A stretch of DNA of 61,282 nucleotides from Bacteroidia bacterium (lineage in GTDB: Bacteria; Bacteroidota; Bacteroidia; AKYH767-A; OLB10): NCBI GenBank assembly GCA_044448905.1, contig JBIOHJ010000001.1:1-61282 (forward strand), in the 5' to 3' direction. The notes beneath the pieces were generated by a model that searched no databases, was not told the DNA's origin, and was given only the letters and a program-made list of their open reading frames with translations. Made by a program: the position numbers and the translations under genes. Below, in pieces: positions 3,715-61,030 of this stretch (within the stretch, counting starts at the first letter, position 1; each line of letters opens with the position of its first letter).

Positions 3715-4401
3715 TCACCTCCCCACCACCACACTCACCTCATCGCTGGCAATTCCAACTTCAATATCATCTACCACATAAATACCTATATATTTCCACA
3801 AAGCAATCCTTTTTTCTTCGGGTAATTTATACTTGTCAATAAAAGTGGTTCGGGTTAAGCGCTTTAAAAATTTCATGCCGTTGCCATCATCGCGGTTCAC
3901 ATACAGGTTCATACCATGCGTATTGTATTTGTTATAGCTGATTTCAGGCCTCCCCAAATCGGGCTTAATTTTTAAAACTGCTTTCAGCGCAGCAAAATCC
4001 TTAACGAAATCAGCCCCGATAATACCTAAATCCTCACCTATGGCTTCGGTATAATGAATGCTTCCTTTCATACGCTGCACCATTCCGCTTATTATGCCGA
4101 AAATACCTGAAGGAACTGCTGCTGGCGCAGCCGGCAATGTAAGCACCGGTACATCACTTGCATTGCCTCCTGGCAAACCAAACATCAGCTCTTTCCGGAA
4201 AGCCGTCATGCTTTTGCTGAACGACCGCACCATTTCAATCGTATCCATTGCATGTTTCAGCATAGTATAGTAATCCTTAACTTCTTGGGCTTCGGTTGGC
4301 AAAATCATAAGAACACTTGCATACGTTCCGATTTTATCGCTGAAATTTTTCAGCCATGCGAGGCGCTTCTTATTGCTTTTCGGGAAATAATGTTTACGCA
4401 T
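3715..4401 (-). CDS. hypothetical protein (no signal peptide)
   Basis: 228-aa ORF with ATG start. Convergent with 3005-3706 (stops 8 nt apart). The tandem array lies upstream. Confidence 0.6.
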   Translation of the reverse strand: MRKHYFPKSNKKRLAWLKNFSDKIGTYASVLMILPTEAQEVKDYYTMLKHAMDTIEMVRSFSKSMTAFRKELMFGLPGGNASDVPVLTLPAAPAAVPSGIFGIISGMVQRMKGSIHYTEAIGEDLGIIGADFVKDFAALKAVLKIKPDLGRPEISYNKYNTHGMNLYVNRDDGNGMKFLKRLTRTTFIDKYKLPEEKRIALWKYIGIYVVDDIEVGIASDEVSVVVGR

Positions 4402-4510: not shown

Positions 4511-4770
4511 AGCAGATTTTTCAGTTACCGGATCATTTGCCCCTGTTGCAGGGGCAAGCTTTTCTATGACCGAATCATTTGCCTCTGTTATGGAGGCAAA
4601 CTTTTCTATAGCTGGATCATTTGCCTCTGTCATGGAGGCAAGCTTTTCTATGACTGAATCATTTGCCTCTGCTATCGGGGCAAGCTTTTTAATGACCGGA
4701 TCATTTGCCTCAATGGTAGGGGCAAGCTATCCGATGGTTCCATCATTTGCCTAGATAACAGAGGCAGATT
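4511..4770 (+). repeat. 42-bp tandem repeat, about 6 units, each with an internal hairpin
   Basis: ATCATTTGCC recurs at 4532, 4574, 4616, 4658, 4700 and 4742, an exact 42-nt period. Hairpin TTGCCCCTG-TTG-CAGGGGCAA in unit 1; TTGCCTC...GAGGCAA or GGGGCAA in later units. Confidence 0.95.
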
Positions 4771-4986: not shown

Positions 4987-6171
4987 TCACATATAATTCG
5001 GGTACCGCTTCACATGCACATTCTTCACCAGTTCTCCCAGGCGCCTTTTCAGTTCATCAATGTTTTCTTTTCGCACAGCCGAAATAAAAACACCCGGCTT
5101 GTTTTCTTTGGCAATCCACGATTTTTTCAAATCATCCAGCGAAAGATTTTCTTTGGTGTGCGGTGTTAAATCGTCATGCTCTTTTTCAGTGAAACGGTAG
5201 GCATCTATTTTATTGAATACTAAAATAGCTGGCTTATCAGACGCAGCAATATCAACTAACGTTTGGTTTACCACGTTAATCTGTTCTTCAAAATTAGGAT
5301 GCGATATATCCACCACATGCAAAAGAATATCGGCTTCGCGCACTTCATCCAAAGTGGACTTGAATGATTCGACTAAATCGTGCGGCAGCTTGCGTATAAA
5401 CCCAACCGTATCCGAAAGCAGGAACGGAATATTTTCCAAAACTACTTTTCTAACGGTGGTATCCAATGTTGCAAACAATTTATTTTCGGCAAACACATCG
5501 CTCTTGCTCAGCAAATTCATAATGGTACTCTTACCCACGTTAGTATATCCTACCAATGCAACACGCACAATATTCCCTCGGGACTTTCGCTGCTGGAAGT
5601 TTTGTTTCTCAATTTTTTTTAATTCTTCTTTAAGGTGAGCCAGCTTATCGCGTATAACCCTCCGGTCAGTTTCAATTTCAGTTTCACCCGGTCCGCGGGC
5701 GCCAATTCCACCGGCTTGTTTTTCCAGGTGCGTCCACATACCTGTAAGCCGGGGCATGAGGTACTTGTATTGCGCAAGCTCCACTTGTGTTTTGGCTGTT
5801 GCCGTACGTGCACGCTTTGCAAAAATGTCGAGGATAAGATTGGTGCGGTCAACCACCTTTATCCCAACCACTTTTTCAATATTTCGTATCTGCGAAGGCG
5901 ATAGTTCATCATCAAAAACAGCAAGGTCAATTTTATTTTCTTTGATGAACGCAGCAATTTCATTCAGCTTACCCGAACCTACAAACGTGCGAGGATCGGG
6001 ATGCTCTAATTTCTGGATAAATTGTTTTTTAGTTTCGGCTCCTGCTGTCAGCGTCAAAAATTCAAGTTCATCCAAATATTCCTTCGCCTGCTCCACCGGC
6101 TGGTCTTTTGTAATCAACGCGATGAGAACTGCGGTTTCCTGTTTTTTAGTATTGTGATGTGATTTCTGCAC
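4987..6171 (-). CDS. hflX: GTPase HflX
   Basis: 394 aa. G1 motif GYTNVGKST, DTVGF, NKID. HflX-type N-terminal domain. The annotated start is GTG, so the exact start is uncertain. Confidence 0.9.
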   Translation of the reverse strand: MQKSHHNTKKQETAVLIALITKDQPVEQAKEYLDELEFLTLTAGAETKKQFIQKLEHPDPRTFVGSGKLNEIAAFIKENKIDLAVFDDELSPSQIRNIEKVVGIKVVDRTNLILDIFAKRARTATAKTQVELAQYKYLMPRLTGMWTHLEKQAGGIGARGPGETEIETDRRVIRDKLAHLKEELKKIEKQNFQQRKSRGNIVRVALVGYTNVGKSTIMNLLSKSDVFAENKLFATLDTTVRKVVLENIPFLLSDTVGFIRKLPHDLVESFKSTLDEVREADILLHVVDISHPNFEEQINVVNQTLVDIAASDKPAILVFNKIDAYRFTEKEHDDLTPHTKENLSLDDLKKSWIAKENKPGVFISAVRKENIDELKRRLGELVKNVHVKRYPNYM

Positions 6172-54835: not shown

Positions 54836-55237
54836 ATGAATAAAATCGAACACATCGGAATAGCAGTAAAGAATCTTGAAGAATCCAATAAGCTTTTTGC
54901 AAAACTTCTTGGGTTCAGCCATTATAAAATTGAAGATGTTGAGCTTGAAAAAGTGAAAACCTCATTTTTCAAAACCGGGGAAACTAAATTAGAATTGCTG
55001 GAAGCCACTTCTCCTGAAAGCGCCATTTACAAATTTGTTGAGAAAAGAGGCGAAGGGCTACATCATATAGCATTTGCTGTAACCGATATTCGTGCTGAAA
55101 TGAAAAGATTGAAAGAAGAAGGATTTATTTTACTCCGTGATGAGCCAATGCCCGGAGCCGATAATAAGCTGGTTTGTTTTTTACATCCAAAATCAACCAA
55201 TTCGGTTTTGATTGAGTTGTGTGAGGAGATGAAATGA
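54836..55237 (+). CDS. mce: methylmalonyl-CoA epimerase (VOC superfamily)
   Basis: 133 aa. IEHIGIAV, GEGLHHIAFAV, FLHPKS...VLIELCE. Confidence 0.8.
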   Translation: MNKIEHIGIAVKNLEESNKLFAKLLGFSHYKIEDVELEKVKTSFFKTGETKLELLEATSPESAIYKFVEKRGEGLHHIAFAVTDIRAEMKRLKEEGFILLRDEPMPGADNKLVCFLHPKSTNSVLIELCEEMK

Positions 55238-55239
55238 GT

Positions 55240-55887
55240 TTAAAGTTTAAAGTTTAAAGTTTTTAAAAAAATTTCCTGAAGCAATTTTTTTAAGTCAGAG
55301 TTTTTGGTATCAAGATGAAAAGAGGTTAAACCGGCTTTTCTTGCACCTTCAACATGTTGAATAGAGTCGTCAATAAAAATAGTTTGGGAATAATCTAAAT
55401 TATTTTCGTTCATAACCAAATTGAAAATTTCAGCATCGGGTTTGCGCATTTTCAGAAAACAGCTGTAATATATTTTTTCGAACAAATTATCAAAAGCATT
55501 TTTGCCGAAATCGTTTTCAAAAAGCTTTGTAAACTCAGTAATGTGAATTGTGTTGGTATTGCTGAGGAGGAAGAGCCTGTATTTTCTTTTCAGCCCTACA
55601 AGAAAGTTGAATCTTTCTTTTGGAATGGTAAGGATTAATGAATTCCAGGCTTCATCTATTTGCTCGTCAGAAATATGAGCTGAAAAACTTTTGCGAATTT
55701 CATTCCTGAATTCATCATCTGAAATAATTCCCTTTTCGTAATTATCAAAAAAGTGTTCCTGCTTTTTTTGAGAATACACTTCGTCAAAATTTTTTATTCC
55801 GAGTTCTTTAAACGCTGCGGCTGTGTTTTCATAACTCACATCAAGTATAACACCTCCGAGGTCGAGAATAATATTTTTGACAATCAT
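55240..55887 (-). CDS. HAD-superfamily hydrolase (subfamily IA-like phosphatase)
   Basis: Motif I LDLGGVI, LLSNTN, KPD, FIDDS. Confidence 0.75.
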   Translation of the reverse strand: MIVKNIILDLGGVILDVSYENTAAAFKELGIKNFDEVYSQKKQEHFFDNYEKGIISDDEFRNEIRKSFSAHISDEQIDEAWNSLILTIPKERFNFLVGLKRKYRLFLLSNTNTIHITEFTKLFENDFGKNAFDNLFEKIYYSCFLKMRKPDAEIFNLVMNENNLDYSQTIFIDDSIQHVEGARKAGLTSFHLDTKNSDLKKLLQEIFLKTLNFKL

Positions 55888-56833: not shown

Positions 56834-56980
56834 AAGTAATAAGTAATGACCAATGAGCAATGAGCAATGAGCAATGAGCAATGACCAATAATCAATGAGC
56901 AATAATCAATGAGCAATGAGCAATGACCAATGAGCAATGAGCAATGAGCAATGTTCAATGTTCAATAGTCAATCTATAAT
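56834..56980. repeat. 21 tandem heptamers (GAGCAAT and variants) abutting the tatC start codon
   Basis: Read directly: AAGTAAT x2, GACCAAT x3, GAGCAAT x10, AATCAAT x2, GTTCAAT x2, AGTCAAT, CTATAAT. No phase breaks. Confidence 0.95.
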
Positions 56981-57150: not shown

Positions 57151-59211
57151 ATGGGTTTCAGAAAATCAAATCAACAGGGCAAACCGGGAGTGAAATTTCT
57201 TTTAAGAATTCGCCAGAGAACTGCAATCAGGTTAGTAACGGCAACTTTAGGCTTTGCGGGATTATTAACCGTTTCAATTTTTGTATCAATCTATTTCGGG
57301 CCCAACAAAAAAGCTTTTGCAACAACTAATGAAACGTTGAGCACGGGTTCGTTTATTATTAATATGGGCATTACTCCTCAAACCTATGCGAACGGAATGA
57401 AGCCGTACGGAATGATTTACGATCTTATCATAAAATATACCGTCCCGATAAAATGGGTTATTGAACCGACTAAAGCTAAAGACGGAACTGATTTTACTTA
57501 CAACGGAACCAATTATAAAGGAGGCCCTTTTATTATACAGGCTGAATTTATTACTTCCACAGTGGCTTCGCGCATCTCGTATTGGCAAACTCAAGGGGTA
57601 CAGGGAGTATATACAACGGATGCCATAACCGTCCCCGTTTATACAACGCTTACGAGCTTTCCGAATCTTATGATTGATTCGTTATCGTCAAATCAAAATA
57701 TTGCTGTTACTTATTTCAATAATGCAGGCATCCCCCCGAGCGCATATGGAATTGGCAAGCCCGCGAGCTTAAACGCATGTCATGATGTGTGGGTAAATCC
57801 TCATGGCGATCCACGATGGGCCGATTACTCTTACCTGTATAATTTCGTTACGGTTCAAAAATCGTATATCTGGCTGCAATGCCATTCGGGAAGTGTTATG
57901 GAAGGCTGTTATAATTACCTTCTGCCAACCCAGCAATTAAATTATTTATCTACTAAAGGGCTAAAGTGCTGGAAAGGCGGGGGCGGTTTCAATTGCGATG
58001 CTTTAATTACCGAATCGCATGCAACGTCATCGACCGCGCCTTATACTTATTATTATCCCTCAGATCCCATCATGCAATTTATGGGTAACATGTCGAACCC
58101 AACGCAGCATGGTTCGGAACAATGGTACCAACCCATGTCGACCGGGGCATGGAGGGGAACTACCAAGAGGCTGGTAACTACCGCTACAGGCGCATCGCCT
58201 AATGAAGGCGTGCTGATGGCTTACGGCCCCGGTTATGGTACTGCCGGAAACGGGCTGGTTATGTACACGGCAGGGCATGATTTGAATTCGGGTGGCGGAA
58301 CAGTTTCGGACTGGGTTGCCGCACAACGTTCGTTTTTGAACTATTGCTGGATTGCCGGGCAGGCAAAGGTGCCATTATTTGTTTCTTACTCCATACCGGT
58401 AACGTTTGTGGGTTTGCGAAGACAAGCGGTTTCGGCAACGGTATCGAGCGGCACACCACCTTATACTTACCTGTGGACTTCGACAATAGGTGGCGAATTT
58501 GTGGATCCAACGGCTGCATCAACCTATTTTATTCCTCCCAATCCTGACCCGGGCCCCATATCGGGAGTGCTGCAATGCATTGTTACGGACGCATGCGGAC
58601 GAAGAAATTTTATTTCTCAATTTATATCAATTACTAACAGCCCATTACCCGTAACCCTCAGCTCGTTTGAAGCTAAAGCGCAAAATAATAAATCGGTATT
58701 GCTTAGCTGGACAACTGTTGCCGAAGTGAACAATGATTATTTTACGATTGAACGTTCGGCTGACGGAAAGCATTTTACAGAGTTGACCCGCGTGGATGGC
58801 GTTGGCAACAGCACGGTTTTGCATAAGTATTCGTACACAGATAATTCGCCTTACAGCGGAAAATCTTTTTACCGCTTAATGCAAACCGATTTTGACGGTA
58901 CATGTGTATTATTTAAAATTGTTCCGGTAACGATTAAAGCAAATGACGAAACCAAAAGCACTGTAACGGTTTCGCCCAACCCGTTTAGTGATGAGTTTAC
59001 AGCTCAGTTTGAATGTTCCGAAAAGGAAGAAGTTACTATTAACCTGATCACGGCTAACGGGATAACAGCTTTTTCGGATAAAATAATTGCCGCTGAAGGA
59101 AATAACCTGTACCGGTTTAACGCGGCAGGTAAAATTCAACCCGGCACTTATCTTTTGAAAATAGGCAACAGCAGTACTGTTTTTGCAACCAAGAAGGTTA
59201 TTTGCCGGTAG
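57151..59211 (+). CDS. large secreted hypothetical protein with T9SS C-terminal domain
   Basis: 686 aa. N-terminal hydrophobic anchor, Ig/fn3-like module (LSWTT...YFTIERSADG...YRL). C-terminal VSPNPFSDEF...GTYLLKI sorting domain. Confidence 0.7.
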   Translation: MGFRKSNQQGKPGVKFLLRIRQRTAIRLVTATLGFAGLLTVSIFVSIYFGPNKKAFATTNETLSTGSFIINMGITPQTYANGMKPYGMIYDLIIKYTVPIKWVIEPTKAKDGTDFTYNGTNYKGGPFIIQAEFITSTVASRISYWQTQGVQGVYTTDAITVPVYTTLTSFPNLMIDSLSSNQNIAVTYFNNAGIPPSAYGIGKPASLNACHDVWVNPHGDPRWADYSYLYNFVTVQKSYIWLQCHSGSVMEGCYNYLLPTQQLNYLSTKGLKCWKGGGGFNCDALITESHATSSTAPYTYYYPSDPIMQFMGNMSNPTQHGSEQWYQPMSTGAWRGTTKRLVTTATGASPNEGVLMAYGPGYGTAGNGLVMYTAGHDLNSGGGTVSDWVAAQRSFLNYCWIAGQAKVPLFVSYSIPVTFVGLRRQAVSATVSSGTPPYTYLWTSTIGGEFVDPTAASTYFIPPNPDPGPISGVLQCIVTDACGRRNFISQFISITNSPLPVTLSSFEAKAQNNKSVLLSWTTVAEVNNDYFTIERSADGKHFTELTRVDGVGNSTVLHKYSYTDNSPYSGKSFYRLMQTDFDGTCVLFKIVPVTIKANDETKSTVTVSPNPFSDEFTAQFECSEKEEVTINLITANGITAFSDKIIAAEGNNLYRFNAAGKIQPGTYLLKIGNSSTVFATKKVICR

Positions 59212-59288
59212 TAGTTATTTCACCTGACGGGGGCTCCCGAAAAAAACGGGACAGGTGCGCGACCCGCCAAGAGAAATGAAAAGTTGAA

Positions 59289-59336
59289 CGCAGAGACGCA
59301 AAGACGCAGAGGAATTATGAATTATGAATTATGAAT
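59289..59336. repeat. short tandem repeats: 8-mer GCAGAGAC-like x3, then heptamer ATTATGA x3
   Basis: CGCAGAGACGCAAAGACGCAGAGG followed by AATTATGAATTATGAATTATGAAT. The 8-mer also occurs inverted at 10553-10572. Confidence 0.9.
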
Positions 59337-59367: not shown

Positions 59368-59407
59368 AAAAAAAACAACCTGACGGGGGCTGCGCGACCC
59401 GTCAGGT
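59368..59407 (-). terminator. rho-independent terminator for gene 59436-60383
   Basis: ACCTGACGGG-10 nt-CCCGTCAGGT, a perfect 10-bp stem. On the - strand it is followed by TGTTTTTTTT. Lies 29 nt after the stop. Confidence 0.75.
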
Positions 59408-59435: not shown

Positions 59436-60383
59436 TTACACTTCTTCGCCATCATTTTCTTCTTCGGCACCTCCGCCAGCCGGGGCTCCTTCTTTTAACA
59501 TGGCAATGGTAAGCTTGGTAGTTTCACCGCTTATGACATTAAAATTTTGCATTGCCGGCTGGTAACCCGGCAGGTTTGTGGTAAGCGAGTGCGCGCCTTC
59601 GGTAAGATTTTGTACAAAGCTGTTGCCCAGCCCGGAGCTGCGCCTGTTAATGCTGCCGTCAACTTTAATTTTTATATGCGCAACGGGCTTGCCGGTTGTT
59701 TGGTCAACAAATTTTGCCTGCAGCGCGCGTTTCTGGGTGGGGCTGTTAACAATAACGCGCGCGTTAAAATATTGCGTATAAAAATCGGGGTTGGTGATGC
59801 GAAACAGCTCCATGCCGCCATCAATTTGTTCCTCGAGAAGCGTAGTGGTTTGGTCAAACAGGGGTCGAAGCTGCTCGGTGGCTGCGCTGGTTTCGCTCAC
59901 TGCTGCGCGCGGCTTGCCAATGTATGCTGCATAATCAGTAATGGCTGTACCCAATGCCGTAGTCATGGGTCCCGTTAACCCGAAAGGCAAAACCGCAACT
60001 GCATTGGCAACAGCCGCTTCATGAACCTGTACAGCCATGCCCGATAATTCGTTATCGCGCGCCTTTGTAAGTTCGGTGCGTGTAAAATTTACTATTTGAA
60101 GCAGCTCGCGGTTGTTAACCTGTGAAGCATAAAATCCAATAATTTTTGCTGCGGCAAAAGTTTGCTCTTCCAAACTCTGTCTTTTATTTTGCTTATCCTC
60201 TGCAACACCTGTTTTGTCTGCGTCCTGTATGTCACGCAGGTCTGCAATGGCATCTATATTTGTTTCAAAGGTGTTAACGGCTGCAGTAAACGGTACATTG
60301 GCTGTCCATACAGCATTGTGAGTTTGCAACACATCATCGGTTGCCTGGTACATGTTAAGGATGTCTTCCTGGGTTTTGTTCAT
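59436..60383 (-). CDS. hypothetical protein: helical N-terminal region plus C-terminal carboxypeptidase-regulatory-like beta-sandwich and acidic tail
   Basis: 315 aa, no signal peptide. C-terminal HIKIKVDG...LTEGAHSLTTNLPGYQP...ISGETTKLTIAM resembles CarboxypepD_reg folds. Confidence 0.6.
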   Translation of the reverse strand: MNKTQEDILNMYQATDDVLQTHNAVWTANVPFTAAVNTFETNIDAIADLRDIQDADKTGVAEDKQNKRQSLEEQTFAAAKIIGFYASQVNNRELLQIVNFTRTELTKARDNELSGMAVQVHEAAVANAVAVLPFGLTGPMTTALGTAITDYAAYIGKPRAAVSETSAATEQLRPLFDQTTTLLEEQIDGGMELFRITNPDFYTQYFNARVIVNSPTQKRALQAKFVDQTTGKPVAHIKIKVDGSINRRSSGLGNSFVQNLTEGAHSLTTNLPGYQPAMQNFNVISGETTKLTIAMLKEGAPAGGGAEEENDGEEV

Positions 60384-60445
60384 GATAGTTTAATTTTTAA
60401 GGTTTGAAATATATTTTATTGAAATTGATTTAACAGATGAATGAA

Positions 60446-60690
60446 TTGCTTAACCCGATGATGCGATTGCTTAACCCGATGATGCGATTGCTTAACCCGA
60501 TGACGCGATTGCTTAACCCGATGATACGATTGCTTAACCCGATGTCGCGATTGCTTAACCCGATGACGCGATTGCTTAACCCGATGACGCGATTGCTTAA
60601 CCCGATGACGCGATTGCTTAACCCGATGATGCGATTGCTTAACCCGATGACGCGATTGCTTTAACCGATGACATCATTGCTTAAAATCAA
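60446..60690 (+). repeat. 21-bp tandem repeat TTGCTTAACCCGATGNNNCGA, 10 near-perfect plus 2 degenerate units
   Basis: Unit starts run from 60446 to 60677 in exact steps of 21. Among the 10 good units only positions 16-18 vary (ATG x3, ACG x5, ATA, TCG). Enclosed by ATG-ORF 60437-60664 (LLNPMxR x10). Confidence 0.95.
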
Positions 60691-60784
60691 CAGCCCCATC
60701 CATTTCATCAAAGAACAGGCAGCAAATATAAATTGACAGTAAGGGCAGAAAAGGGCAAAAAGTAACCCAAATGAAAAAGCCGGG

Positions 60785-61030
60785 TTATTTATTTTTAATG
60801 CCTAAACATACCCGCTTTATTTTTTTAATCCCGCTATGGCTGTAACCCGACTGCGAATTAATGTCTTTGTATTTTAAATTCTCACCAATTCCTTTTTCGG
60901 CTTGCTGCAAATTGTGCTCATGCAAAAGCGAACTCCAGGTAAAACGCTCATCACCATAATAGAATTCAAATTCGCGCACCGTTTCAATGGGAACATGCTG
61001 TAAAATGTGGTTTAGCTTATGACGGTTCAT
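60785..61030 (-). CDS. small hypothetical protein
   Basis: ORF 60785-61093. Internal ATG at 61030 (MNRHKLNHIL...) preferred. No recognisable motif. Confidence 0.3.
   Translation of the reverse strand: MNRHKLNHILQHVPIETVREFEFYYGDERFTWSSLLHEHNLQQAEKGIGENLKYKDINSQSGYSHSGIKKIKRVCLGIKNK

What the first reader, a model, noticed from the sequence alone, without database searches (positions are those of the whole stretch)
60437..60690. 21-bp tandem array in which all variation is confined to one codon-sized triplet; it exactly fills an ATG-ORF of ten LLNPMxR heptapeptides
Ten consecutive units TTGCTTAACCCGATG-NNN-CGA (60446-60655) are identical at 18 of 21 positions. Only positions 16-18 differ: ATG x3, ACG x5, ATA x1, TCG x1. 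Two decayed units follow. Neutral decay of a tandem repeat should scatter substitutions across the unit. Here they cluster in three adjacent nucleotides that coincide with a codon of the only ATG-initiated frame. That ORF (60437-60664) reads MNE-(LLNPM[M/T/I/S]R)x10-LL*, starts 9 nt before the array and stops in the first degenerate unit. There are two readings. (i) It is a small gene for a multi-copy heptapeptide, i.e. a multi-core precursor-like peptide with one variable residue. (ii) It is a phased protein-binding array (21 bp is about two helical turns) with one tolerated or discriminating triplet. Both would be unusual, and I see no hairpin potential in this unit.
Basis: partly seen in the sequence, partly recalled or inferred. 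Interest (0 to 1): 0.65.

Follow-up and report, generated by a model that had tools for sequence, protein, structure and literature searches.

The report
Conserved non-coding 21-base leader repeats
The ten 21-base repeats are real but almost certainly encode no peptide: they belong to a strictly 21-base-periodic, non-coding array found between a predicted promoter and the same gene of unknown function in every relative examined from uncultured Bacteroidia, most likely a row of docking sites for a regulatory protein.

Summary
Ten units TTGCTTAACCCGATG-NNN-CGA lie at 60446-60655, flanked by decayed units on both sides, and the 75-codon ORF exists.

The peptide reading fails.
- The ORF's ATG is the unit's own ATG inside a decayed unit.
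- An open frame is expected by chance in 96% of column-permuted versions of this array.
- The equivalent frame carries stops in 8 of 15 related arrays.
- There is no conserved start codon and no homologous peptide.

All 20 distinct loci encoding a relative of the adjacent 315-aa gene (47-73% identity) with usable upstream DNA carry a 21-bp-period array upstream. In 176 units there was no register shift.

The unit sequences have diverged but share one architecture: box A, a 4-nt free spacer, box B (TCAG), and a loose tail.

A conserved Bacteroidetes -7 box lies about 41 nt before the array on the gene's strand. None lies between array and ATG, so the array probably forms most of a leader of about 335 nt. 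A fast-evolving 81-aa helix-turn-helix gene precedes it in 12 of 16 loci.

Best reading: a phased, multivalent protein-docking array. I cannot tell whether it is read as DNA (slight preference) or as leader RNA. It appears undescribed.

The parts
60446..60655 (-). Core array: ten 21-bp units. On the gene-sense (-) strand each reads TCG-NNN-CATCGGGTTAAGCAA. In the family register it reads AAGCAAT-CG[C/T]-[G/A][T/A]CAT-CGGGTT.
   Evidence: Register alignment with 16 related arrays.
60656..60697 (-). Two promoter-side decayed units (16/21 and 11/21 identical to the consensus). The TAA in the first one ends the + strand ORF.
60425..60445 (-). Gene-side decayed unit (13/21). It contains the TAA that opens the + strand ORF and the ATG (60437) taken as its start, which is the unit's own ATG.
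   Evidence: by direct reading.
60437..60664 (+). 75-codon ORF MNE(LLNPMxR)10LL*. I judge it a by-product of the repeat, not a gene.
60723..60730 (-). Exact Bacteroidetes sigma-A '-7 box' TATATTTG on the gene-sense strand. The predicted transcription start is near 60718. Its position is conserved in 14 loci.
   Evidence: The consensus TAnnTTTG at -12 to -5 is taken from PMC9723704.
60698..60718 (-). Predicted first ~20 nt of the leader, before the first decayed unit. In relatives the corresponding 41-nt segment is conserved in length and often forms a 5' stem-loop (CCCTCA...TGAGGG).
60384..60424 (-). A/T-rich proximal leader with the family-conserved CAAACCTTAAA-like motif (60396-60406) 10-25 nt before the ATG. 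It contains no exact -7 box; the nearest match, TATATTTC, has one mismatch.
59436..60383 (-). Downstream gene, 315 aa. The N-terminal part (residues 1-208) is all-helical with no detectable relative. The C-terminal part (221-295) is a transthyretin-like / CarboxypepD_reg beta-sandwich. It has no obvious N-terminal signal peptide, and its function is unknown.
59368..59406 (-). Intrinsic terminator of the 315-aa gene: CCTGACGGG-N10-CCCGTCAGG followed by TTGTTTTTTTT.
60785..61030 (-). Upstream co-directional gene for an 81-aa, five-helix protein with a C-terminal helix-turn-helix. It is present in 12 of 16 loci and evolves fast (11-28% identity).
60764..60786 (-). Inverted repeat AACCC-N13-GGGTT at the stop codon of the small gene, just before the promoter. 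Its counterparts in other loci have different arms and variable spacing, which suggests an RNA hairpin or terminator.

Best explanation
The array is a non-coding, cis-acting element of a small conserved cassette. The cassette order is: small helix-turn-helix (HTH) gene, hairpin, sigma-A promoter, 21-bp array, 315-aa gene, terminator.

Each 21-bp unit is one bipartite docking module:
- box A, 7 bp (AAGCAAT in the window; AAAGAAT, AAACAAT, GTGCGGA or TTGGAA in relatives);
- a 4-bp spacer that is free to vary;
- box B (TCAG in most arrays, TCAT in the window);
- a loosely constrained tail.

The roughly ten copies are kept exactly two helical turns apart, so all modules face the same side of the duplex. 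I propose that a protein binds them cooperatively and in register. It would coat the first ~300 bp downstream of the transcription start and set how much of the 315-aa gene is transcribed, by roadblock or silencing that is relieved when the protein leaves. The most likely binder is the co-encoded HTH protein, or a more conserved factor such as the 315-aa protein.

Shown by analysis:
- the array is non-coding;
- array presence, period, orientation and box/spacer pattern are conserved across the family;
- a promoter motif lies at a fixed distance;
- the HTH gene is adjacent.

Inferred:
- that a protein binds the array;
- which protein it is;
- that it reads DNA rather than the leader RNA;
- the sign of the effect on expression.

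My confidence that this is a selected, non-coding docking array is about 0.8. My confidence in the DNA-level version stated here is about 0.4.
For: - Every locus encoding a relative of the gene with usable upstream DNA has a 21-bp-period array (or a 42/63/84-bp higher-order form). That is 20 distinct loci at 47-73% protein identity, and in most the array ends 35-110 bp before the ATG.
- 176 units stay in strict 21-bp register with no indel.
- All 17 arrays tested align better in the same orientation than in reverse complement.
- Per-position variability profiles are correlated between arrays: mean Spearman 0.41 against 0.00 +/- 0.02 for random rotations, 0 of 500 rotations reaching it. Box A (entropy 0.08-0.35 bit) and box B (0.16-0.55) are held, while the spacer (0.62-1.16) and tail vary.
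- By my reading of that register, the box centres lie about 9.5 and 11.5 bp apart, roughly one helical turn.
- The distance from the -7 box to the first register position is 41 +/- 1 bp, or 41+21, in 9 of 14 loci. The phase is conserved (Rayleigh p about 0.007 mod 21). The phase relative to the ATG is random (p 0.6).
- The upstream neighbour is a small five-helix protein. Its nearest solved relatives are TrpR-like and LuxR/sigma-region-4-type HTH DNA binders. Like the units, it diverges fast.
- Copy number changes by whole units: a 42-bp indel separates L026 and L027, which are otherwise identical.
- Two cassettes in one MAG (metagenome-assembled genome) carry different units (L005 and L007).
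Against: - No binding has been shown.
- The array lies downstream of the predicted start site, which is an unusual place for ten operator sites.
- Boxes A and B are unrelated, so a symmetric HTH dimer is an awkward reader.
- Arrays are just as well kept in four loci that lack the adjacent HTH gene (L007, L008, L009, L015).
- Loci with similar HTH recognition helices have different box A sequences, and the reverse also occurs.
- The gene-sense strand is purine-rich in most arrays (0.52-0.77). A duplex-binding site does not need that.
- Phase conservation relative to the promoter could be simple descent with a length-constrained 5' segment.
- The promoter is predicted from a motif only.
Confidence: 0.4

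Rival explanations
1. The architecture is the same, but the element is read as RNA. The array is transcribed as most of a ~335-nt leader. Each 21-nt single-stranded unit binds one copy of a protein, most plausibly the conserved 315-aa product itself or a host RNA-binding protein. This would control translation or stability of the mRNA, or titrate or assemble the protein. A sharper version has the repeats cut into 21-nt units that stay bound to the protein, as in type III toxin-antitoxin systems.
For: - A conserved -7 box lies on the gene-sense strand about 41 nt before the array in 14 loci (exact in 6 of the 10 scanned). None lies between the array and the ATG.
- The predicted leaders are 240-660 nt. 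Median 5' UTRs in Flavobacterium and Bacteroides are 24-32 nt (PMC9723704).
- The sense strand stays purine-rich through complete turnover of the box sequences.
- Orientation relative to the gene is invariant.
- The array is retained where the HTH gene is absent.
- A core of positions (A5, A6, T12, C13, A14, T20) is shared by all arrays. This argues for a conserved reader rather than the hypervariable HTH protein.
- A conserved 5' stem-loop follows the predicted start.
- A fixed unit length is also what a processed or protein-measured RNA unit would require.
Against: - There is no conserved RNA structure. The z-score against column-permuted arrays is +0.18 on the sense strand. No Rfam family matches.
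- The 315-aa protein has no recognisable RNA-binding or nuclease fold.
- There is no terminator between the repeats and the gene, unlike type III TA loci.
- Known repeat-RNA sponges tolerate irregular spacing, whereas this array is strictly periodic. A period of exactly two DNA turns would then be a coincidence.
Confidence: 0.3
2. The array is a tolerated minisatellite with no sequence-specific reader. It would be inherited from the family's ancestor and kept homogeneous by unequal crossing-over. At most it would serve as a long unstructured spacer between promoter and gene.
For: - Unequal exchange conserves unit length automatically.
- There is whole-unit copy-number polymorphism and higher-order 42/63/84-bp structure.
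- The lineage is rich in other short tandem repeats.
- No binder has been identified.
Against: - The array is present in all 20 loci, across 47-73% protein identity and in paralogues.
- The same positions are fixed and the same positions are free in independent arrays.
- No 20- or 22-bp variant has ever become fixed.
- Orientation and promoter distance are conserved while the ATG-side flank drifts.
- Intergenic DNA at this divergence normally keeps no similarity.
Confidence: 0.12
3. The + strand ORF 60437-60664 is a real small gene for a multi-copy heptapeptide (LLNPMxR)10, for example a multi-core precursor peptide.
For: - The ORF has an ATG and exactly spans the array.
- Related arrays also have at least one nearly open antisense frame.
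- A one-mismatch -7-like box (AAGGTTTG, 60399-60406) lies upstream on the + strand.
Against: - Stops occur in the equivalent frame in 8 of 15 arrays, and no frame is open in all.
- The start codon is not conserved.
- Openness is at or below chance expectation.
- The ATG and both bounding stops belong to decayed units.
- The ORF was not called as a gene, and the only database hit is to an unrelated repeat.
- There are no maturation enzymes nearby.
- The spacer positions that vary create stop codons freely in relatives.
Confidence: 0.03
4. The array works through DNA shape alone. On this view, in-phase repeats every two turns make an intrinsically curved segment that modulates the promoter.
For: The period is 21 bp, or 2 x 10.5. 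Some relatives have one A-tract per unit (L013, L002, L011).
Against: In a dinucleotide wedge model only L013 is clearly curved. The window and most other arrays are as straight as, or straighter than, column-permuted controls (the parameters were recalled from memory, so this is approximate). The window's unit has no A-tract.
Confidence: 0.03
5. The repeats are iterons or a partition centromere of an integrated plasmid or phage.
For: Directly repeated ~2-turn units sit next to a small DNA-binding protein gene, which resembles iteron/Rep and parC/ParR layouts.
Against: - No Rep, ParA/ParM or phage genes are present.
- The surroundings are chromosomal housekeeping genes such as tatC, a rhomboid protease and an HflX-like GTPase.
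- There are no PHROG or PADLOC hits.
- The cassette recurs as paralogues beside different chromosomal genes.
Confidence: 0.02

Closest known systems
Plasmid/phage iterons (e.g. R6K, pPS10, P1, F)
   Same: Both have 17-22-bp direct repeats spaced about two helical turns apart. In both, each repeat is a bipartite site with two boxes about one turn apart, the sites are read in register, and the array often doubles as an autoregulatory operator.
   Different: There is no Rep initiator, no AT-rich unwinding element and no DnaA boxes. The cassette is chromosomal and present in several copies per genome. The array lies downstream of a promoter, inside the leader of a non-replication gene.
Centromere/operator repeat arrays bound by small adaptor proteins (R1 parC-ParR, pSK41 parC, omega protein heptads of pSM19035)
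   Same: In both, about ten contiguous direct repeats sit next to the gene of a small DNA-binding protein that coats them cooperatively and represses an adjacent promoter.
   Different: There is no partition NTPase. The small protein here is an HTH protein, not ribbon-helix-helix. It is missing from 4 of 16 loci, and the gene order is different.
Type III toxin-antitoxin loci (toxIN, cptIN, tenpIN)
   Same: Both have the order promoter, tandem direct repeats of exact unit length, then protein gene. Both have locus-specific repeat sequences with a conserved layout.
   Different: Units here are 21 nt in 8-15 copies, against 34-45 nt in 2-6 copies. There is no predicted pseudoknot or other structure and no terminator between repeats and gene. 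The protein is a helical domain plus a transthyretin-like domain with no ToxN/AbiQ match (PADLOC and Pfam negative).
Multi-site protein-sponge RNAs (CsrB/RsmZ family)
   Same: Both have many copies of a short single-stranded motif in one transcript. Box B plus the tail in several relatives (CAGGAAG, CAGGGAG) resembles the CAGGAxG repeats of CsrB.
   Different: The GGA motif is absent from the window's array and from several others. The spacing here is strictly periodic. The array is a leader, not a stand-alone sRNA. From general knowledge, which I did not test here, CsrA is not typical of Bacteroidota.
Promoter-region VNTR contingency loci (e.g. 7-bp repeats upstream of Haemophilus hmw genes)
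   Same: Both are intergenic tandem repeats whose copy number is polymorphic in whole units (42-bp indel, L026 vs L027).
   Different: Contingency repeats are short, hypermutable and not conserved between species. Here the array is identical across samples in two other loci, and its period and architecture are conserved over deep divergence.
Multi-core ribosomal peptide precursors
   Same: The only resemblance is a repeated heptapeptide-sized coding unit with one variable residue.
   Different: There is no conserved ORF, start codon or frame. Stops occur in relatives, and there are no tailoring enzymes.

Membership tests
Multi-core peptide precursor / small protein gene | An open reading frame with a start codon conserved in orthologous loci | tested here: not met
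   Frame R0 has stops in 8 of 15 arrays, and no frame is open in all. L011 and L013 have no ATG, and others have one only deep inside the array.
Multi-core peptide precursor / small protein gene | Openness beyond what the repeat structure gives by chance | tested here: not met
   Column-permuted arrays have an open antisense frame in 71-98% of cases. Observed stops total 6 against a null mean of 3.2.
Multi-core peptide precursor / small protein gene | Homologous peptides or neighbouring maturation enzymes | tested here: not met
   There was one chance hit among 5.8e9 clusters. The neighbours are a hypothetical protein, an HTH protein and a T9SS cargo protein.
Iteron replication origin | Direct repeats of 17-22 bp at about two-turn spacing | tested here: met
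   The period is 21 bp in all arrays.
Iteron replication origin | An adjacent Rep initiator gene and a plasmid or phage context | tested here: not met
   Pfam, NCBIfam, PHROGs and PADLOC show no Rep. The context is chromosomal.
Partition centromere (parC/parS-type) | A partition NTPase (ParA/ParM/TubZ) in the operon | tested here: not met
   The only downstream gene is a helical domain plus a transthyretin-like domain, with no NTPase fold.
Partition centromere (parC/parS-type) | A small centromere-binding protein encoded next to the repeats | tested here: inconclusive
   An 81-aa HTH protein is adjacent in 12 of 16 loci. Binding was not tested.
Type III toxin-antitoxin | A tandem repeat array directly upstream of the protein gene, transcribed from a promoter upstream of the repeats | tested here: met
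   The layout and the conserved -7 box support this. Transcription is predicted only.
Type III toxin-antitoxin | A ToxN/AbiQ/CptN/TenpN-type endoribonuclease toxin | tested here: not met
   There are no PADLOC or Pfam hits. The AF2 fold is a helical bundle plus a beta-sandwich.
Type III toxin-antitoxin | A structured (pseudoknot) repeat RNA and a terminator between repeats and toxin gene | tested here: not met
   Folding is no better than in permuted arrays. There is no terminator in the proximal leader. Pseudoknots were not modelled.
CsrB/RsmZ-type sponge RNA | Repeated GGA motifs in every unit | tested here: not met
   GGA is absent from the units of the window, L002, L003 and L013.
Sigma-A promoter of Bacteroidota | A TAnnTTTG box at -12 to -5 at a position conserved among orthologues | tested here: met
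   The box is exact at window 60723-60730 (-) and in L001, L005, L010, L013 and L020, with one mismatch in eight others, all in the same aligned column. The consensus is from PMC9723704. No transcript data are available.
TrpR-like / small HTH regulators (the 81-aa neighbour) | A helix-turn-helix fold resembling solved members | tested here: inconclusive
   The AF2 model has pLDDT 91 and five helices. The best PDB matches are TrpR-like proteins 3kor, 3frw and 3g1c, with probability 0.8-0.94 but E about 0.4. The profile search hits the same entries and LuxR-type HTH proteins at E 0.02-0.08.

The most novel reading that the evidence does not exclude
The array is an RNA device. On this reading, the leader carries ~10 exact 21-nt single-stranded modules that are bound one-to-one, and perhaps cut into unit lengths, by the protein encoded immediately downstream. 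That would make a self-contained repeat-RNA/protein module, comparable in logic to type III toxin-antitoxin pairs or to an RNA-templated protein assembly. It would be built from an unrelated protein fold and a much shorter, unstructured repeat, and it would be diversified into paralogous cassettes with private repeat sequences.
Probability: 0.2. Interest if true: 0.8.

Novelty: new variant of a known kind. Interest (0 to 1): 0.55.

Why it matters
Tandem repeats in bacterial intergenic DNA are usually written off as unstable or neutral. Here a minisatellite has kept its exact 21-nt period, its orientation, its distance from a promoter and its internal pattern of fixed and free positions, while its sequence was largely rewritten. 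This holds across all known relatives of one gene and between paralogues in one genome. That is the signature of a measured, multivalent docking platform.

The array sits in an unusually long leader in a phylum whose post-initiation regulation is poorly known. It would give a compact, testable model with two small genes and one array. The model could address how cooperative coating of DNA or RNA sets gene expression in Bacteroidota, and how the specificities of repeats and readers co-diversify.

It is also a practical warning for annotation. Gene callers place spurious 100-110-aa 'hypothetical proteins' on these arrays, on either strand.

Tried and rejected
- Peptide gene: rejected by the frame, start-codon, null-model and homology tests.
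- Structured RNA: there is no Rfam hit. The + strand z of -3.6 against dinucleotide shuffles disappears against column-permuted arrays, and mean z is about +0.2 to +0.4 on both strands across 14 arrays.
- Intrinsic curvature: the wedge model shows no consistent bend.
- Promoter between array and ATG: there is no exact TAnnTTTG on the sense strand in any locus. The generic sigma-70 scan was uninformative for this phylum.
- Identity of the 315-aa protein: Pfam, NCBIfam, PHROGs, PADLOC, the PDB profile search and Foldseek against PDB and BFVD recognise only the C-terminal transthyretin-like domain.
- Matching HTH recognition helices or the inverted-repeat arms to the array boxes: I found no convincing correspondence by eye. 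The variable arm spacing (9-16 nt) suggests the inverted repeat is an RNA hairpin rather than an operator.
- CsrA-type GGA motifs: not universal.
- Literature searches for 21-bp repeats or leader arrays in Bacteroidota found nothing relevant.
I reran it with database homologues.
Full report
**1. The observation.**
The window is a 38% G+C, 61,282-bp contig of an uncultured Bacteroidia MAG (metagenome-assembled genome). It is the only contig carrying these proteins in the collection. At 60446-60655 there are ten head-to-tail units TTGCTTAACCCGATG-NNN-CGA, identical at 18 of 21 positions. The triplets are ATG x3, ACG x5, ATA x1 and TCG x1. TRF gives period 21, 11.4 copies and 92% matches. The pattern occurs 10 times against 0.05 expected and nowhere else in the window. 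The ORF 60437-60664 (+) exists as described.

Two distal decayed units follow (16/21 and 11/21). Its TAA closes the frame, and its own internal ATG is the ORF's start. The ORF therefore 'fills' the array because decay of the flanking units creates the bounding stops.

**2. Context.**
The array lies 62 bp upstream of a divergent-looking gene at 59436-60383 (-). All the relevant partners are in fact on the minus strand:
- an 81-aa gene (60785-61030);
- the array;
- the 315-aa gene;
- a strong intrinsic terminator (59368-59406).

The 315-aa protein has 49 database relatives, all hypothetical and all from Bacteroidia-type metagenomes. AlphaFold2 (pLDDT 90) gives an all-helical N-terminal part (1-208) and a C-terminal transthyretin-like / CarboxypepD_reg sandwich. 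Only the sandwich matches anything in Pfam, NCBIfam, PHROGs, PADLOC, PDB or BFVD. The wider window is chromosomal, with tatC, a rhomboid protease, a HAD hydrolase, an HflX-like GTPase and T9SS cargo genes.

**3. Comparative result.**
I fetched 27 loci encoding relatives of the 315-aa protein. Every one of the 20 distinct loci with usable upstream DNA has a tandem array of period 21, often with 42, 63 or 84-bp higher-order structure. The arrays have 5-15 units and usually end 35-110 bp before the ATG.

The most distant relatives (47% identity, L008 and L009) have a 42-bp-period array (two 21-bp half-units sharing a TTCAA core) further upstream. In L003 a GC-rich palindromic insertion separates the array from the gene.

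Cut into 21-mers, 176 units from 17 arrays never leave register. The consensus units differ: AAAGAAT..GTCAGG, AAACAAT..ATCAGG, GTGCGGA..TCAGG, TTGGAA..TCAGG, TGGAAATGA.AACAG, TTGGAA..CATCTCCGG, and AAGCAATCG...CATCGGG in the window. They can still be placed in one register with an unambiguous best rotation, and always in the same orientation relative to the gene.

In that register:
- positions 1-7 (box A) and 12-15 (box B, TCAG) are nearly invariant within each array, with mean entropy 0.08-0.55 bit;
- positions 8-11 (0.62-1.16 bit) and 16-21 vary.

The variability profiles of independent arrays are correlated: mean Spearman 0.41, against 0.00 +/- 0.02 for random rotations, with 0 of 500 reaching it. 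The window's variable triplet is register 10-12. The match with codon boundaries is incidental.

Other population-level observations:
- Two samples of one locus differ only by a 42-bp (two-unit) indel in the array (L026/L027).
- Two other loci are identical across samples.
- One MAG carries two cassettes with different units (L005 and L007).

**4. Not a peptide.**
In the common register, the frame equivalent to the window's ORF has stops in 8 of 15 arrays (L002 five, L010 three, L001 two). No frame on either strand is open in all. The conserved CTGA of box B is read as Leu-Thr in some arrays and Pro-Asp in others. Start codons are not conserved.

I applied one column permutation to all units of an array, which keeps the repeat structure. 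An open antisense frame then appears in 71-98% of cases (96% for the window). The real arrays carry more stops (6) than that null expects (3.2).

The ORF was not called as a gene. It has no homologue among 5.8 billion clusters except a chance match to another 21-bp repeat on an unrelated contig. Gene callers put 100-110-aa ORFs on these arrays on whichever strand happens to be open.

**5. Where the array sits.**
On the gene-sense strand, in the gap between the small gene and the array, all 14 alignable loci have a Bacteroidetes sigma-A -7 box, TAnnTTTG, in the same aligned column. It is exact in the window (TATATTTG, 60723-60730) and in L001, L005, L010, L013 and L020, and has one mismatch in the rest. 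According to PMC9723704 this box occupies -12 to -5.

No such box occurs between the array and the ATG. The predicted start is near 60718 and the leader is about 335 nt. Leaders in relatives are 240-660 nt. Median 5' UTRs are 24-32 nt in Flavobacterium psychrophilum and Bacteroides thetaiotaomicron (PMC9723704).

The distance from the -7 box to the first register position is 41 +/- 1 nt, or 41+21, in 9 of 14 loci. The phase is conserved (Rayleigh p about 0.007), whereas the phase to the ATG is random (p 0.6). Several leaders begin with a conserved stem-loop (CCCTCA...TGAGGG). All of this is motif-based; there are no transcript data.

**6. The small gene.**
A co-directional 76-93-aa gene precedes the promoter in 12 of 16 loci with enough sequence. 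It is absent next to L007, L008, L009 and L015. The proteins align collinearly but share only 11-28% identity with the window's copy, against 55-73% for most of the 315-aa relatives. Only nine relatives were found in the large database.

The AF2 model (pLDDT 91) has five helices. The nearest solved structures are TrpR-like proteins (3kor, 3frw, 3g1c; probability 0.8-0.94, E about 0.4), with Mor lower in the list. A profile search hits the same entries plus LuxR/NarL-type and sigma region-4 HTH proteins at E 0.02-0.08. There are weak hits to the CD3324 family and to a PHROG annotated as late transcriptional activator. I take it to be a small HTH DNA-binding regulator, but membership in any named family is not established.

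An inverted repeat overlaps its stop codon. The arms differ between loci and the spacing varies from 9 to 16 nt. That behaviour suits an RNA hairpin better than an operator.

**7. Mechanism.**
Three things are solid: the array is non-coding, it is under selection, and it acts in cis on the 315-aa gene. The shared box/spacer pattern points to a sequence-specific reader that binds each unit. The unbroken period points to a reader that measures the distance between units.

*DNA-level version (about 0.4).* Arguments for:
- 21 bp is two helical turns.
- The two boxes are about one turn apart.
- The array keeps its phase to the promoter.
- An HTH gene is attached.

A cooperative coat over +40 to +290 would act as a roadblock or silencer.

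*RNA-level version (about 0.3).* Arguments for:
- The array is downstream of the only recognisable promoter.
- Its sense strand stays purine-rich (0.52-0.77) through sequence turnover.
- Its orientation is fixed.
- It survives without the HTH gene.
- A core of positions is common to all arrays, which suits a conserved reader such as the 315-aa protein better than the hypervariable HTH protein.

Against the RNA version: there is no conserved structure on either strand, no Rfam match, and no RNA-binding fold in the protein.

*Other readings.*
- Intrinsic curvature is not supported (approximate parameters).
- A neutral minisatellite is hard to reconcile with the family-wide constraints (about 0.12).

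**8. Comparison with known systems.**
The element works like an iteron or parC/omega-type operator array (phased direct repeats read cooperatively). Alternatively it works like the repeat arrays of type III toxin-antitoxin loci (promoter, exact repeats, protein gene). It fails the defining membership features of each:
- no Rep;
- no partition NTPase;
- no ToxN-type nuclease;
- no terminator between repeats and gene;
- no structured repeat;
- no universal GGA motif.

The full membership table is given in the Membership tests section. Literature searches found no description of such leader arrays in Bacteroidota. I rate it a new variant of a known kind, namely phased tandem docking arrays, of moderate interest. 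The main open question, DNA or RNA, is directly testable.

**9. Caveats.**
All sequences are metagenome assemblies, so repeat copy numbers may be imprecise. The promoter and leader are inferred from motifs. The register alignment uses base frequencies and could slightly favour aligning conserved columns. The binder is unknown.

Noticed in passing
window 4518-4766: This is a second intergenic tandem array with period 42 bp (4.8 copies, plus 84 and 126-bp higher order). Each unit carries a hairpin TTGCCTC-N7-GAGGCAA. It lies between an HflX-like GTPase gene (4987-6171, -) and a hypothetical gene (3715-4401, -), about 117 nt upstream of the latter. It looks like another leader-type repeat array of a different kind.
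   Followed up: partly
window 56838-56960: A heptamer array (CAATGAG)n of about 15.6 copies lies between the start of tatC and the T9SS-cargo gene 57151-59211. The listed TTG start of the tatC ORF falls inside it, so the real start is probably further in.
   Followed up: partly
window 59288-59336 and 55237-55262; L005 3262-3297; L010, L001, L002, L003: Short 7-8-nt tandem repeats are frequent in intergenic DNA of this lineage: ACGCAGAG x3, GAATTAT x3.6, AGTTTAA x3.7, TTTGAAC x5 directly before the ATG in L005, and ACAGAAG x4.9. Since 21 = 3 x 7, a mechanistic link to the 21-bp arrays is conceivable, but I did not examine it.
   Followed up: no
L026 490-531 vs L027: The same locus from two JGI samples is identical over about 670 nt except for a 42-bp (exactly two-unit) indel inside the array. 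This is whole-unit copy-number polymorphism, or possibly an assembly difference.
   Followed up: yes
L001 3662-3964 (-); L026 315-644 (-); L024 2423-2755 (+); L025 603-935 (+): Public gene calls place 100-110-aa 'hypothetical proteins' on the arrays, on opposite strands in different loci. These are probably annotation artefacts.
   Followed up: yes
window 57151-59211 (+); L001 1701-3233; L002 1182-2840; L003 1204-2883; L024 848-1741: Genes with a T9SS C-terminal sorting domain (Por_Secre_tail) sit directly beside the cassette in five loci, usually divergent from the small HTH gene. This may indicate a functional link, or may only reflect the abundance of such genes.
   Followed up: no
L003 3802-3817 and L021 375-416 (locus coordinates converted from the upstream slices listed): Both arrays contain a palindrome GCTGAC-GCAAT-GTCAGC made of two box B copies in inverted orientation, embedded without breaking the 21-bp register.
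   Followed up: no
L003 about 3860-3960: A GC-rich palindromic, REP-like insertion (GCCTGCCTGCCGGTAGGCAGG...) lies between the array and the ATG. It lengthens the predicted leader to about 660 nt.
   Followed up: no
L028 1-235 and 930-1093: This unrelated 1.1-kb metagenome contig was found through the 75-aa ORF. It has its own 21-bp array (CCTCAATCCGATGATTAGACG, about 11 copies) and a 12-bp array at the other end. The similarity to the window's unit is limited to CCGATGA.
   Followed up: partly
window 60396-60406 and the equivalent position in most loci: A conserved CAAAC(C/T)T(T)AAA motif lies 10-25 nt upstream of the ATG of the 315-aa gene. Read on the opposite strand it resembles a -7 box (exact in L013, one mismatch in the window), so an antisense promoter firing into the array cannot be excluded.
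   Followed up: partly
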